A stretch of DNA of 33,395 bases from an uncultured archaeon. GTDB lineage: Archaea > Asgardarchaeota > Thorarchaeia > Thorarchaeales > Thorarchaeaceae. Of the stretch, positions 1,109-33,395 are shown one piece after another. Positions within the stretch are counted from its first letter, which is position 1. Each line of letters starts with the position of its first letter. The notes below the pieces were generated by a model, which was not told where the DNA came from, made no database searches, and saw only the letters and a list, made by a program, of their open reading frames with translations. The DNA is taken from positions 1 to 33,395 of the forward strand of contig CAZSWP010000039.1 in the NCBI GenBank assembly GCA_964610875.1, in the 5' to 3' direction. A program made the position numbers and the translations under genes.

Positions 1109-1546
1109 TTTGTCTGCTGCTAGAATTGAGTATATTGACGAAACCTAGCTCGAATATTGTTCTGTTGACACTTCGCCGTAGTTATCTTGAATCCAATGAC
1201 TGTTAGTAGTTATAAGAATCCAATGAATATAATGATATCATGACTGGAGTGGAGGTTATTCGAACAGAGTTCACTTCTGACGAGGAAATGATTAGAGGTG
1301 CATTTATCACTCCTAAAAGTGACGGTCCCTTTCCGGGTATATGCAAATTTCATGGTCTTCCTGGTGGTCCAGATCAAATTGGAGGAATTGCTACACTATT
1401 AGCAAAAGCAGGTTTTGCGGTGTTGACATTTGATTTCAGAGGTTTTCGAAAGAGTGAAGGAATATTTTCATTGTCCGGAGAAATCAAGGATGCTCAGGTA
1501 GCTATCACACATCTCCTTGATACTGAAATCACTCTGGAAGGTTGGG

Positions 1547-1733
1547 TTTCGTACAGCTCCCAGAATTCCAGACAGACCTAGACATCAGTGTATAGGTACT
1601 TATATACTCCTGACAAGAACAACTTGGTGAGGGTGTATTGACACACGAACGTGCTCTCACAAAGCCATTCCCAGTACCGCTCCTGGGAGGACAATGCTTT
1701 GGTGTCCAGAATTGTCCAGCTTACAATGAACGG
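1547..1733 (+). mobile_element. Non-autonomous IS607-like mini-element (MITE), copy 1
   Basis: 187-bp insertion at TGGG|T with GGT junction microhomology (1545-1547 and 1732-1734). Ends in ...CAATGAACGG. CYRGACA-like subterminal repeats at about 10-bp spacing, inverted between the two ends. Homologous to 26730-26916. Confidence 0.88.
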
Positions 1734-1750
1734 TAGGTTTCTATGGTGCA
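1626..1750 (+). ncRNA. Putative TnpB omega-RNA-like scaffold plus flanking guide
   Basis: Stems 1627-1636/1651-1660 and 1660-1665/1696-1701. Pseudoknot GACAC 1640-1644 with GTGTC 1702-1706. Compensatory changes relative to copy 2. TTATATA box at 1600-1606. Confidence 0.65.
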
Positions 1751-2365
1751 AGCTATGGTGGGGCTGTAGCTACTTGTACTGCTGCACGTGATTCCCGAAT
1801 AAGCGCTGTTTGCTTAAGAGCTCCTGTATATGACACACTTTGGTTTGCAAAATCACCGATGATTCGCCCTGCAATAGAACACATCATTGAAACTGACCCT
1901 TCACAAGTTCGAGGAATTGAAGACCCTGCCATTCAGAAGAGGTTTCTCCAACAGATGATTGATGAAGCTCATGAACACAATCCTATGAATGAGGTGTCAA
2001 AGATTTCTCCTACGCCCTTACTCATTGTCCATGGCACTGATGATACCGGTATTGACCTAGCTGGTGTGAAACGACTCTATGAGCTTGCTGGAGAACCGAA
2101 AGACTTCACAGTTATAGAGGGTGCTGACCATGAACTGTCTGACCCTCGGACATACAATATTACAATGAACATCATTACTGATTGGTTTGCAAAACAATGG
2201 TCAGAATTTCAATCCGGTCGTCTAACCTGAGAAGTGGACTTGGATTCTAAAAAATTTCTAAAATTGTGTGAATTATTCTTGTGATTAACCTCTTAATTTA
2301 TAACAAAGAGATTTTCTGATATGTTCGAGAACTTTTCAGTTCTTTCGTAATTGGAGGTATACGTA

Positions 2366-10017: not shown

Positions 10018-10413
10018 CTAGAATCTTCTTGAACTGCTATTGTGAACTTCAGCTGACATATCAACTTCTGTCTTCACTTCATCTATCGATTCTTCAGCAG
10101 TAGCAATAGAACCATACTTTCCTAATTGAAGTCTTAGATTATTCCTGAAGAGACCTGTGTATCCATTTGTAAGGATGTAGGTTTCGCCTTCTTTTATGGA
10201 TTCGATAGTTTCGTTCCAAATAGGCATTATGACAGTTGCTGTGGAATCGCCAACTACTGCATCCACTACACGGTATGTTTCATCATCCTTTCTTGATTTC
10301 ACTTCTCTTTCTTCACTGGTGCTTATGACCTTGAAGGTAACTTTGACACTTTTCATTCCGGGTTTAAGCTCATCAATTGTAGCCTCGATGGGCTCAGATT
10401 TATTATCAATCAT
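10018..10413 (-). CDS. Single OB-fold ssDNA-binding protein (SSB/RPA-like)
   Basis: IDELKPGMKSV.VTFKV, VGDSTA, IWNE, NGYTGLFRNNLRLQLGKYG. Confidence 0.9.
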   Translation of the reverse strand: MIDNKSEPIEATIDELKPGMKSVKVTFKVISTSEEREVKSRKDDETYRVVDAVVGDSTATVIMPIWNETIESIKEGETYILTNGYTGLFRNNLRLQLGKYGSIATAEESIDEVKTEVDMSAEVHNSSSRRF

Positions 10414-19218: not shown

Positions 19219-19686
19219 CTAATAACGTCTGCCGCCACTACGACTTCTGCCGCCATAGCTCCTGCTGCCACGTCGATCTCTACCACCGCCGCCATAACTA
19301 CGACGACGAGGTCTCTCATGTGTTTCAGCAGACATGTCGTTTTCAGTATCGACTTCTTCAATATCACTATCTGTATCCTTGAGTTCTCCATATCTTCCGA
19401 TATTGAGTCTTAGGTTACCTTTGAACAGACCTGTGTATCCATTCTCAAGTTGATAGGTTTCTCCAATCTCTACTTGGTCAATCTTGCCATCCCATAATGG
19501 GACTGCTACTGTACCAGTTGTATCACCGACTATTGCTTCTGCAATACGGTGTGTAGAATCATCTCGTCTTGATGTGACTTCACGTTCTTCTCCTAGTTCC
19601 ATGACCTTGAAAGTAATGGATAGGTTTTTCATTTGTGGCCTAAGTTCAGCCACTGTTGCCTCAATGGGCTCTCTTTCGTAACTCAT
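19219..19686 (-). CDS. Single OB-fold SSB/RPA-like protein with Arg/Gly-rich tail
   Basis: Paralog of 10018-10413 (VGDTTG, LWD, NGYTGLFKGNLRLNIGRYG) with tail RRSYGGGGRDRRGSRSYGGRSRSGGRRY. Confidence 0.9.
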   Translation of the reverse strand: MSYEREPIEATVAELRPQMKNLSITFKVMELGEEREVTSRRDDSTHRIAEAIVGDTTGTVAVPLWDGKIDQVEIGETYQLENGYTGLFKGNLRLNIGRYGELKDTDSDIEEVDTENDMSAETHERPRRRSYGGGGRDRRGSRSYGGRSRSGGRRY

Positions 19687-26569: not shown

Positions 26570-27020
26570 TCAATCTCCCGGTTCTCTCTGCATCACAATT
26601 GACTGAAACATGACCGTGGCATCAAGTGGCTCCACGACACCATTTTCAAAACGCTTTAGGGAATCAGAATAAGTTTCCTCAAATTTTTCCAAGAATCGTC
26701 GCTCAAGCACTCTCGCATCATATGTATCACCGTTCATTGTAAGCTAGATAATTCTGGACACCAGAGCATTGTCCTCCAAATGACGGTACTGGGAATGGCT
26801 CTGTGAGGTCATAGTACGTGTCAGGATGACCTCCGTACTCTGGTATATTGTCTGAGCATATCACCTCGTCCTGAAACATGTCTAGGATTGTCCAGGTTTT
26901 TGGCGGCTGTTAACAACCCTCTTGGCGTACGGCACAAGTCGCATTTATGCCATATTCAAGAAGAACTGCAAGGTCTTAATGAAAAACAGCCCGTATATTT
27001 TTCGTTGTATTTTGGTTAAT
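26570..27020 (-). pseudogene. Decayed Asgard longin-like domain gene interrupted by mini-element copy 2
   Basis: After removing the element the frame reads IRAVFH*DLAVLLEYGINATCAVRQEG-DTYDARVLERRFLEKFEETYSDSLKRFENGVVEPL... with a TAA at 26976-26978. Confidence 0.6.
26730..26916 (-). mobile_element. Non-autonomous IS607-like mini-element, copy 2
   Basis: Same 187-bp length as copy 1; inserted at AGGG|T on the minus strand; right end nearly identical (...GGTGTCCAGAATTATCTAGCTTACAATGAACGG). Confidence 0.88.
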
Positions 27021-33281: not shown

Positions 33282-33342
33282 AGCATTAACCTCATCACTA
33301 TAGTATAGATAGACTTGATATATCTATGGCAACCGTTCTCAA

Positions 33343-33395
33343 CCGTTGATTGTAAACTGGACAAACCTGGACATGGAGTCTAGGCAGTCCGCCCA
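33343..33395 (-). mobile_element. Right end of a third related IS607-like element; runs off the window
   Basis: Minus strand ...TGTCCAGGTTTGTCCAGTTTACAATCAACGG|T matches the copy 1 end TGTCCAGAATTGTCCAGCTTACAATGAACGG|T. Confidence 0.8.

What the first reader, a model, noticed from the sequence alone, without database searches (positions are those of the whole stretch)
26730..26835. Covariation and a pseudoknot indicate the element's right half is a structured RNA
Seen: stem CAAAGC/GCTTTG in copy 1 becomes CAGAGC/GCTCTG in copy 2, a compensatory A-U to G-C change. The upstream stem differs in sequence but still pairs (GTGAGGGTGT/GTGCTCTCAC versus GAGGTCAT/ATGACCTC). Its loop keeps GACAC, complementary to a conserved GTGTC near the end. 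Established: a pseudoknot is a hallmark of TnpB omega-RNAs. Inference: selection acts on RNA structure in a compact scaffold of about 105 nt, despite loss of all ORFs.
Basis: partly seen in the sequence, partly recalled or inferred. Interest (0 to 1): 0.75.

Follow-up and report, generated by a model that had tools for sequence, protein, structure and literature searches.

The report
Gene-less IS607 mini-transposon carrying guide-RNA scaffold
The flagged 105 bases are the folded scaffold of a TnpB-type guide RNA carried by a 191-bp protein-free IS607 mini-transposon that litters Thorarchaeota (Asgard archaeal) genomes; the covariation and pseudoknot are real, but this is a lineage-specific example of a known kind of selfish element.

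Summary
Observation confirmed and interpretation supported. Window 26729-26919 (sense = minus strand) and 1544-1734 (sense = plus strand) are two of at least 45 copies of a 181-221 bp ORF-less element. Its left end matches the left ends of IS607-family elements on another contig. These carry a serine transposase, a giant ORF and a 731-aa TnpB-like nuclease. Its right end matches the 3' end of the large tnpB gene, in the tnpB sense.

The ends read GGG...CGG(T), as for ISXfa1. Removing copy 1 restores a conserved hydrolase motif seen intact in relatives.

A covariance model finds the RNA in 42 of 61 genomes of the same family and in 0 of 125 genomes from other families of the phylum. On 100 sequences, 23 of 31 proposed pairs show compensatory changes (0 of 500 shuffles). 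Four stems are supported; stems 2 and 4 cross. A second, canonical guide-adjacent pseudoknot is weakly supported. G-U outnumbers A-C about 3:1 on the tnpB-sense strand, and a TATA box sits 22-30 nt upstream of stem 1.

Expression and use by TnpB are inferred. The flagged copy is itself decayed. Earlier follow-ups of this scan reached the same reading on other copies in this genome.

The parts
26729..26919 (-). Copy 2 of the mini-element (191 bp, no ORF); reads GGGTTGTTAACAGC...TTACAATGAACGGT on the minus strand
   Evidence: Sharp ends shared by 41 complete copies with unrelated flanks. It is the most diverged copy of its cluster, holding 14 of 32 private substitutions.
26729..26833 (-). Guide-RNA (omega/reRNA) scaffold of copy 2, 105 nt = the finding. 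Stem 1 26826-26833/26805-26812; loop GACAC 26818-26822; stem 2 26798-26803/26762-26767; stem 3 26789-26793/26776-26780 (one mismatch); stem 4 26768-26774/26746-26752 (one mismatch, one G-U); GUGUC 26757-26761; terminal AACGGU 26729-26734
   Evidence: Model R1 scores 116.9 bits here. Coordinates. Covariation.
26857..26863 (-). Degenerate TATA-like box (TGATATG) of copy 2, 24-30 nt upstream of stem 1
   Evidence: The family has TTATATA (at least 6 of 7 matches) at -30 to -22 in 62 of 99 sequences and nowhere else upstream. Two private substitutions hit this box in copy 2.
26861..26919 (-). Left end of copy 2, with GGG at the boundary and two direct repeats: CTGGACA 26889-26895 and CTAGACA 26879-26885
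   Evidence: An nhmmer profile of the left ends also hits the left ends in front of the two IS607 transposase genes on contig C18 (E 1.7e-8 and 2.8e-5).
1544..1734 (+). Copy 1 of the mini-element (191 bp), inserted in an alpha/beta-hydrolase gene
   Evidence: The gene halves are 1240-1543 and 1735-2230. Removing the element with one GG gives ...LEGWVGFYGASYGG. Uninterrupted orthologues read [SG]-W-[VM]-G-V-Y-G-A-S-Y-G-G over a TGGGT site.
1627..1734 (+). Scaffold of copy 1. Stem 1 1627-1636/1651-1660; GACAC 1640-1644; stem 2 1660-1665/1696-1701; stem 3 1670-1674/1683-1687; stem 4 1689-1695/1711-1717; GUGUC 1702-1706; AACGGU 1729-1734
   Evidence: Model R1 scores 120.0 bits. Coordinates.
1600..1606 (+). 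TATA box TTATATA of copy 1, ending 21 nt before stem 1
26709..26728 (-). Presumed guide of copy 2 (host DNA next to the right end; length assumed about 16-20 nt by analogy)
   Evidence: Position is by analogy with ISXfa1 reRNA, which has a 17-nt guide beyond the boundary (10.1101/2023.08.09.552727, section 23). No second genomic match beyond chance was found.
1735..1754 (+). Presumed guide of copy 1 (hydrolase coding sequence next to the right end)
   Evidence: Same reasoning as for copy 2. Only chance-level matches elsewhere.
33342..33395 (-). Right end of a related full-length-type element (ends ...TTTACAATCAACGGT), cut off by the contig end
   Evidence: Partial R1 match, 29.1 bits, model positions 65-119. 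The same end sits at contig ends of C35 and C86.

Best explanation
The region is the guide-RNA scaffold (omega RNA, also called reRNA) kept by a protein-free miniature derivative of an IS607-family transposon of Thorarchaeota.

Shown:
- The element has IS607-type ends and many copies at unrelated sites.
- It made a clean insertion at a GGG site.
- Its right half is homologous to the 3' end of a large tnpB gene.
- It has a covarying fold of four stems with crossing helices.

Inferred mechanism:
- The serine transposase TnpA, encoded elsewhere in the genome, moves the element by recombination at a GG dinucleotide, using the TGTCYAG repeats near both ends.
- An internal TATA box starts transcription at about the base of stem 1.
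- The transcript runs about 105 nt to the right end and on into host DNA. Each copy therefore makes a scaffold plus a guide equal to its own flank.
- The 731-aa TnpB-like nuclease, supplied in trans, binds this RNA.
- After an excision it cuts the restored empty site (GGG followed by the guide match). Repair from a filled sister copy then puts the element back.
- In the filled state the guide match is preceded by CGG, so the element does not attack itself.
For: Identity of the element:
- 41 complete copies of 181-221 bp, plus others at contig ends, have sharp ends GGGT...AACGGT and unrelated flanks.
- The left end matches the left ends in front of two serine transposase genes (NF033518, 183 bits against a cut-off of 110; MerR HTH plus Resolvase).
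- The right end matches the sequence just after the stop codon of the 731-aa TnpB-like ORF (PF07282). GADRG, FENLK and HADVNAARNI motifs are visible in its translation.
- R1 hits the 3' end of all 6 full-length tnpB loci tested, in the tnpB sense (27-60 bits).
- The empty site of copy 1 is reconstructed in frame and matches orthologues.

Structure:
- (23 of 31 pairs compensatory; 0 of 500 shuffles; slid controls 9-18 pairs but a covariation score of 0.04-0.10 against 0.293).
- Stem 4 covaries with the second TGTCC repeat only. It does not covary with the first repeat or the left-end repeats.
- Pseudoknot A: 82 of 100 sequences fully paired, with 10 fully compensated variants from at least 4 lineages. 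Full-length parents carry ACAU/AUGU.
- Pseudoknot B: 93.5% of cells paired, with A-U, G-U and G-C at its end pair.

Strand and promoter:
- G-U 102 against A-C 36 in the core stems.
- A TATA box at a fixed distance.

Link with TnpB:
- All 33 genomes with the TnpB have the RNA, and 19 genomes have neither.

Precedent:
- GGG TAM and CGG at the right end of ISXfa1, and a required pseudoknot (10.1101/2023.08.09.552727, sections 23-24).
- Stand-alone mobilised omega RNAs that work in trans (PMC10691335, citing Altae-Tran 2021).
Against: - There is no transcript data. Promoter, RNA ends and guide length are inferred.
- No binding or cleavage test exists.
- Nine RNA-positive genomes, one with 38 matches, showed no large TnpB at E<=1e-20. 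Copies can therefore persist without the nuclease, or the gene is unassembled.
- Private substitutions in 27 copies are no rarer in stems (0.0055 per site per copy) than in the left end (0.0079) or unpaired scaffold (0.0058). This rests on 32 events only.
- The flagged copy has a damaged TATA box and weakened stems 3 and 4.
- The G000 parent on contig C18 scores only 39.8 bits and lacks a recognisable stem 2, so it is not the direct source.
- GACAC and GUGUC both resemble the transposase-type repeat. Part of their complementarity could therefore come from inverted protein sites.
- Folding energies are not exceptional.
Confidence: 0.72

Rival explanations
1. Hitch-hiking relic. The right half is kept only because the transposase needs right-end sequences. 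The RNA fold is inherited from the tnpB-bearing parent and has no role in the mini-element.
For: - Transposase-type repeats (TGTCYAG) lie inside the scaffold.
- Private substitutions are spread evenly over stems and non-stems.
- Nine genomes have copies but no detected TnpB.
- The flagged copy is decaying.
Against: - Stem 1 has been rebuilt in at least five different sequences that all pair, while in the parents this stretch is coding sequence.
- Compensatory changes occur across 13 genera.
- A serine recombinase acting on double-stranded DNA has no need for a conserved TATA box at a fixed distance.
- It also has no need for G-U-tolerant pairing on one strand.
Confidence: 0.15
2. The pairings act in DNA, as single-strand hairpins or cruciforms used during transposition, as in IS200/IS605 ends.
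For: Covariation by itself cannot tell RNA from single-stranded DNA. The paired segments overlap the subterminal repeats.
Against: - No Y1 transposase (PF01797) was found in a genome that is 95% complete.
- The associated transposase is an IS607 serine recombinase. Established knowledge of that family says it works on double-stranded sites.
- Crossing helices and a loop-to-3'-end pairing are typical of folded RNA.
- There is a promoter-like box upstream.
Confidence: 0.04
3. A small RNA used by the host or by another protein, independent of the large TnpB. Examples would be a regulator acting on the neighbouring gene or a guide for a different TnpB-derived protein.
For: - It has its own promoter-like box.
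- It persists in genomes without the large TnpB.
- Other TnpB families exist in the genome.
Against: - Insertion sites are unrelated and include a disrupted conserved gene.
- Presumed guides match nothing else beyond chance.
- The scaffold is homologous to the large-TnpB 3' end specifically.
- Copies are not conserved at orthologous positions. Hydrolase orthologues in the relatives with a match read as one open frame of 263-316 aa, and three were read across the site and lack the insert.
Confidence: 0.06

Closest known systems
reRNA/omega RNA of IS607-family TnpB, e.g. ISXfa1 of Xylella fastidiosa (10.1101/2023.08.09.552727)
   Same: - It lies at the right end in the tnpB sense, and the guide is the flank.
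- The element begins at a GGG site and ends CGG.
- Transposase repeats are embedded in a stem-loop.
- A pseudoknot joins an apical loop to nucleotides next to the guide.
   Different: - There is no sequence similarity and no Rfam family.
- The scaffold is about 105 nt instead of 144 nt.
- It has an extra loop-to-internal pairing and a stem 2/stem 4 crossing.
- It is carried by an ORF-less element with its own archaeal-type TATA box.
- The cognate nuclease is 731 aa and scores below the curated TnpB cut-offs.
Stand-alone, mobilised omega RNAs that act in trans (Altae-Tran et al. 2021, as summarised in PMC10691335)
   Same: [quoted passage not shown]
   Different: - Those were described for bacterial OMEGA systems, and trans activity was shown experimentally.
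- Here the host is an Asgard archaeon and the element is IS607-type with defined ends.
- Copy number is dozens per genome across 13 of 16 genera sampled.
- Trans activity is untested.
ISDra2 TnpB omega RNA (PMC10097598)
   Same: It has a 116-nt scaffold with four stems and a pseudoknot formed by guide-adjacent nucleotides, plus a 16-nt guide. Size and helix count are similar.
   Different: - That is an IS200/IS605 element with a Y1 transposase and a TTGAT TAM.
- There, the pseudoknot partner is near the 5' end rather than in an internal loop.
- There is no sequence relationship.
MITEs, and palindrome-associated elements derived from IS200/IS605
   Same: They are short, ORF-less and multi-copy, mobilised in trans by the parent's transposase, and can disrupt genes.
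   Different: - This element has no terminal inverted repeats.
- It makes no target duplication.
- Its ends are asymmetric, with GG crossover sites.
- It carries a promoter plus a structured RNA.

Membership tests
IS607-family non-autonomous element | Ends homologous to those of an element encoding an IS607 serine transposase (MerR-type HTH plus resolvase domain) | tested here: met
   - A left-end profile hits C18:16148 and C18:60599, directly upstream of transposase genes.
- NF033518 scores 183 bits against a cut-off of 110.
- Pfam finds Resolvase plus MerR/HTH_17.
IS607-family non-autonomous element | GG crossover dinucleotide at both boundaries, with no target-site duplication | tested here: met
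   - Of 41 copies, 37 begin GGGT and 37 end CGGT.
- The copy 1 site is restored exactly by removing the element plus one GG.
- An apparent 5-bp AGGTT duplication was shown to be coincidental.
IS607-family non-autonomous element | No coding capacity; many copies at unrelated sites | tested here: met
   The elements are 181-221 bp. 41 complete copies and further contig-end copies lie in distinct flanks.
IS607-family non-autonomous element | Mobilised by the transposase in trans | not testable with these tools
   Only indirect evidence exists: two intact transposase genes in the genome and an insertion absent from orthologous sites.
TnpB omega RNA / reRNA | Encoded at the right end in the tnpB sense, overlapping the gene's 3' end, and ending at the transposon boundary | tested here: met
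   The model built from mini-elements hits the 3' end of all 6 full-length tnpB loci on the tnpB strand, and the hits end at the shared ...ACAAT[GC]AACGGT.
TnpB omega RNA / reRNA | Conserved multi-stem scaffold supported by covariation | tested here: met
   Each of the four stems has 3-8 pairs with changes on both sides in the 100-sequence alignment.
TnpB omega RNA / reRNA | Pseudoknot between guide-adjacent nucleotides and an apical loop | tested here: inconclusive
   - Stem-3 loop ACCGUU pairs with the terminal AACGGU in 93.5% of cells, but both are nearly invariant.
- Only 3 cells in 2 pairs are compensated, and 1-21 of 500 shuffles reach the observed values.
- The other pseudoknot (stem-1 loop x GUGUC) is better supported, but it is not guide-adjacent.
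TnpB omega RNA / reRNA | Transcribed, bound by TnpB, and directs TAM-dependent DNA cleavage | not testable with these tools
   Only a conserved TATA box, strand-biased G-U pairs and co-occurrence with the TnpB gene are available.
IS200/IS605 (Y1 transposase) derived element | Y1 HUH transposase in the genome, a fixed 4-5 nt target motif 5' of the left end, and subterminal hairpins | tested here: not met
   PF01797 was not found in the 95%-complete genome, while the control genomes were positive. The left flank shows only an A/T preference at positions -1 and -2.
Any curated Rfam family | Match at the gathering score or at E<=1 | tested here: not met
   No match in the window at gathering thresholds. 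No match on the two copies or the parent end at E<=1.

The most novel reading that the evidence does not exclude
Each mini-element may be a self-promoted guide-RNA gene that borrows both proteins of its parent: the transposase to move, and the large TnpB to cut its own vacated site. A protein-free element would then enjoy RNA-guided homing. The dozens of copies would together give the nuclease a genome-wide set of guides.

A bolder version is that in lineages that lost the large TnpB the RNAs serve another TnpB-derived partner.
Probability: 0.4. Interest if true: 0.6.

Novelty: new member of a known kind. Interest (0 to 1): 0.4.

Why it matters
Asgard archaea are the closest known relatives of eukaryotes, and IS607 TnpBs are the proposed ancestors of eukaryotic Fanzor nucleases (10.1101/2023.08.09.552727).

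This family offers hundreds of natural variants of one compact guide scaffold (about 105 nt). It comes with a defined TAM-like site (GGG), a built-in archaeal promoter and a matched 731-aa nuclease. That is a ready-made data set for working out the RNA fold, and for testing whether non-autonomous elements are retained by RNA-guided homing.

For annotation, it explains many contig breaks and at least one disrupted gene in these genomes. It also supplies a covariance model for an RNA that is missing from Rfam.

Tried and rejected
- Rfam gave no family at gathering thresholds on the whole window, and none at E<=1 on both copies and the parent end.
- Single-sequence folding of both strands of both copies gave z-scores from +0.35 to -0.94, so there is no thermodynamic signal.
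- An IS200/IS605 origin was rejected. No Y1 transposase was found, there is no fixed target motif, and a serine transposase is present.
- A 5-bp target duplication (AGGTT on both sides of copy 1) was rejected. Other copies show none, and orthologues show that the site is TGGGT within ...G-W-V-G....
- A first candidate full-length element, at C23:32237, turned out to be a truncated right end next to ordinary genes.
- A search for second genomic targets of 58 presumed guides found only chance-level matches. The best was 20 nt with 1 mismatch, E 0.006 for one of 58 queries.
- A test for purifying selection on individual copies had too few events (32) to decide. The first run mislabelled one stem and was repeated.
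- The model-fitted alignments put the stem-1 loop of one subfamily one column out of register. As a result the tool under-counts pseudoknot A on A5 (73% paired). I re-registered the loop by script. I also ran the tool on a 35-sequence subset chosen by register, not by pairing (95.2% paired).
- The body of the multi-copy element whose right end sits at window 33342-33395 could not be found. It is unassembled.
- The giant ORF of the parent gave no Pfam or NCBIfam match for its C-terminal 1326 aa. Its N-terminal 512 aa were not scanned.

Full report
WHAT IS AT THE COORDINATES
Window 26730-26835 lies inside a 191-bp repeat at 26729-26919. Its partner at 1544-1734 is in the opposite orientation, and the best-conserved 79 nt are 89% identical.
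- CAAAGC/GCTTTG in copy 1 against CAGAGC/GCTCTG in copy 2.
- An upstream hairpin of different sequence that still pairs.
- GACAC in its loop, and GTGTC further on.

The motifs are written on the plus strand for copy 1 and on the minus strand for copy 2.

THE REPEAT IS A MOBILE, GENE-LESS ELEMENT
- The window is contig C39 of a 3.75-Mb, 95%-complete assembly.
- A housekeeping-type gene in the window has its closest relatives (78-86% identity) in Candidatus Thorarchaeota genomes.
- BLAST and profile scans find 41 complete copies of 181-221 bp, plus further copies at contig ends. They fall into several subfamilies.
- All have the same sharp ends, GGGT...ACAATGAACGGT, and unrelated flanks.

THE PARENT IS AN IS607-FAMILY ELEMENT
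- The left end matches the left ends directly upstream of two serine transposase genes on contig C18. These have a MerR-type HTH plus a resolvase domain, and NF033518 scores 183 bits against a cut-off of 110.
- The right end matches the sequence just after the stop codon of a 731-aa TnpB-like ORF. Pfam finds PF07282, and GADRG, FENLK and HADVNAARNI motifs are visible.
- Left end, transposase, a 1,838-aa antisense ORF, tnpB and right end together form an 8.6-kb unit, C18:16148-24729. A second, diverged unit starts at C18:60599 and runs off the contig.
- No Y1 transposase was found. The parent is therefore IS607-type, not IS200/IS605.

INSERTION CHEMISTRY
The element begins GGG and ends CGG(T). 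Copy 1 splits an alpha/beta-hydrolase gene. Relatives carry this gene uninterrupted, reading [SG]-W-[VM]-G-V-Y-G-A-S-Y-G-G across a TGGGT site.

Removing the element together with one GG restores ...L-E-G-W-V-G-F-Y-G-A-S-Y-G-G in frame. This is what recombination at a GG dinucleotide predicts, and there is no target duplication.

The arrangement is the one described for the IS607 element ISXfa1 (10.1101/2023.08.09.552727, section 23):
- insertion into GGG, which is also the TnpB TAM;
- CGG next to the guide in the filled state, so the element does not cut itself.

THE RIGHT HALF IS A STRUCTURED RNA OF THE tnpB STRAND
A MAFFT alignment of 34 right halves from this genome shows 12 of 26 proposed pairs with changes on both sides. 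Slid controls give 2-5.

A covariance model built from it (R1) gave these distributions:
- It finds the RNA in 42 of 61 genomes of the same family (13 of 16 genera).
- It finds none in 125 genomes of 26 other families of the phylum, under the stricter filters used for large searches.

On 100 sequences from about 30 genomes:
- 86.8% of cells pair.
- 23 of 31 pairs carry compensatory changes.
- The covariation score is 0.293, against 0.132 in shuffles (0 of 500 as high) and 0.04-0.10 in slid controls.

Four stems are supported:
- Stem 1 is rebuilt in at least five different sequences.
- Stem 3 is CCCAG/CUGGG.
- Stem 4 is GGACAAU/AUUGUCC.

Stem 4 starts before stem 2 closes, so the two cross. Its 5' strand covaries with the second TGTCC repeat only, not with the first repeat or the left-end repeats. 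This argues for base pairing rather than coordinated protein sites.

In the core stems G-U cells outnumber A-C cells 102 to 36, which points to the tnpB-sense strand.

These counts carry caveats:
- The sequences are related.
- The larger alignments were fitted to a model.
- The shuffle counts are not probabilities.

THE PSEUDOKNOTS
After putting the loop motif in register, 82 of 100 sequences pair at all five positions.
- The variants include GACAU/AUGUC (6 sequences, in two genera), GACAG/CUGUC (3) and AACAC/GUGUU (1).
- A further 14 sequences have wobble-compatible single changes.
- About 13 sequences have one mismatch.
- Full-length tnpB loci carry ACAU with AUGU at the same place.
- On a 35-sequence subset with a consistent register, the tool gives 95.2% pairing with two compensated pairs.

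I regard pseudoknot A as supported, with one caveat. Both partners resemble the transposase-type repeat in opposite orientations.

Pseudoknot B is a second pairing that I found. The stem-3 loop ACCGUU is complementary to the last six nucleotides, AACGGU, next to the guide. This is the position of the pseudoknot shown to be essential in ISXfa1 and seen in the ISDra2 structure (10.1101/2023.08.09.552727, section 24; PMC10097598).
- It pairs in 93.5% of cells.
- Its end pair shows A-U, G-U and G-C.
- It is too conserved for a strong test.

PROMOTER AND LINK TO THE NUCLEASE
- A TTATATA box (at least 6 of 7 matches) lies at -30 to -22 from stem 1 in 62 of 99 sequences, and nowhere else upstream. 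From general knowledge of archaeal promoters, this places the start of transcription at about the base of stem 1 and gives a scaffold of about 105 nt.
- R1 hits the 3' end of all six full-length tnpB loci tested, on the gene's strand.
- Across 61 genomes, 33 have the TnpB and all 33 have the RNA. Nine have the RNA only and 19 have neither. This is partly built in, because each tnpB carries its own copy, and the genomes are kin.

WHAT REMAINS INFERRED, AND WHAT SPEAKS AGAINST FUNCTION IN EVERY COPY
- There are no expression, binding or cleavage data.
- Folding energies are unremarkable.
- Presumed guides are simply the flanks and match nothing else beyond chance. This fits homing or retention, not regulation or defence.
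- Private substitutions are spread evenly over stems, loops and the left end (32 events). Selection is therefore visible for the propagating lineages, not for single insertions.
- The flagged copy 2 holds 14 of those 32 substitutions. It has a degenerate TATA box (TGATATG) and mismatches in stems 3 and 4. Copy 1 is the better preserved of the two.

COMPARISON WITH WHAT IS KNOWN
- Stand-alone, mobilised omega RNAs that work in trans with compatible effectors are already described (PMC10691335, citing Altae-Tran 2021).
- IS607 reRNAs with embedded transposase repeats and a required pseudoknot are described too (10.1101/2023.08.09.552727).
- New here: the host lineage, the particular fold (no Rfam family), the fusion of an archaeal-type promoter to the scaffold in an ORF-less IS607 derivative, the scale of the family, and the large divergent nuclease.
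- No paper in the searchable library combines Thorarchaeota, transposon and TnpB.
- Earlier follow-ups of this scan reached the same reading for other copies in this genome. I had reached it independently before reading them, and I took from them the lead to the ISXfa1 preprint.

VERDICT
This is a new member of a known kind, of moderate interest.

Noticed in passing
window 1240-2230: Copy 1 disrupts a conserved alpha/beta-hydrolase gene (nucleophile elbow GASYGG). Hydrolase orthologues in the relatives with a match read as one open frame of 263-316 aa. The N-terminal frame runs into the element and stops at 1581.
   Followed up: yes
window 33342-33395: This is the right end of a different, full-length-type element (ends ...TTTACAATCAACGGT), cut by the contig end. 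The same end sits at ends of contigs C35 and C86, so a multi-copy element is probably unassembled.
   Followed up: partly
G000:C18:16148-24729 (L045, L047) and C18:60599 to contig end (L046): An 8.6-kb IS607-type unit carries a serine transposase, a 1,838-aa antisense ORF with no Pfam or NCBIfam match in its C-terminal 1326 aa, and a 731-aa TnpB-like gene. A second unit has a giant ORF that is 34% identical.
   Followed up: partly
G000 contigs C78, C3, C37, C25, C16 (L034, L036, L038-L040): A second TnpB family has a different 3' region ending in ...GGTGGAACACAGAAG...GTTCACTCA. This resembles the conserved GTTCACTCA described downstream of Asgard Cas1-associated TnpBs (PMC10691335).
   Followed up: no
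G000:C13:57417-57883 (L052, L072): Two mini-elements of different subfamilies sit left end to left end, 57 bp apart.
   Followed up: no
genomes G010, G053, G050 and six others: The RNA model finds 12-38 matches in G010, G053 and G050 and 1-7 in the other six, but the large TnpB was not found at E<=1e-20. Either these are relic copies or the gene is unassembled.
   Followed up: no
window 10112-10188 and 19388-19464: A 77-nt direct repeat at 73% identity, 9.3 kb apart, was reported by the repeat finder. It is probably paralogous coding sequence.
   Followed up: no
L045:2614-2730 and L182:1475-1582: In full-length elements the counterpart of stem 1 and its pseudoknot loop is encoded by the codons of the RuvC-III motif (...NAARNIIDV...). 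Protein and RNA constraints therefore overlap there.
   Followed up: partly
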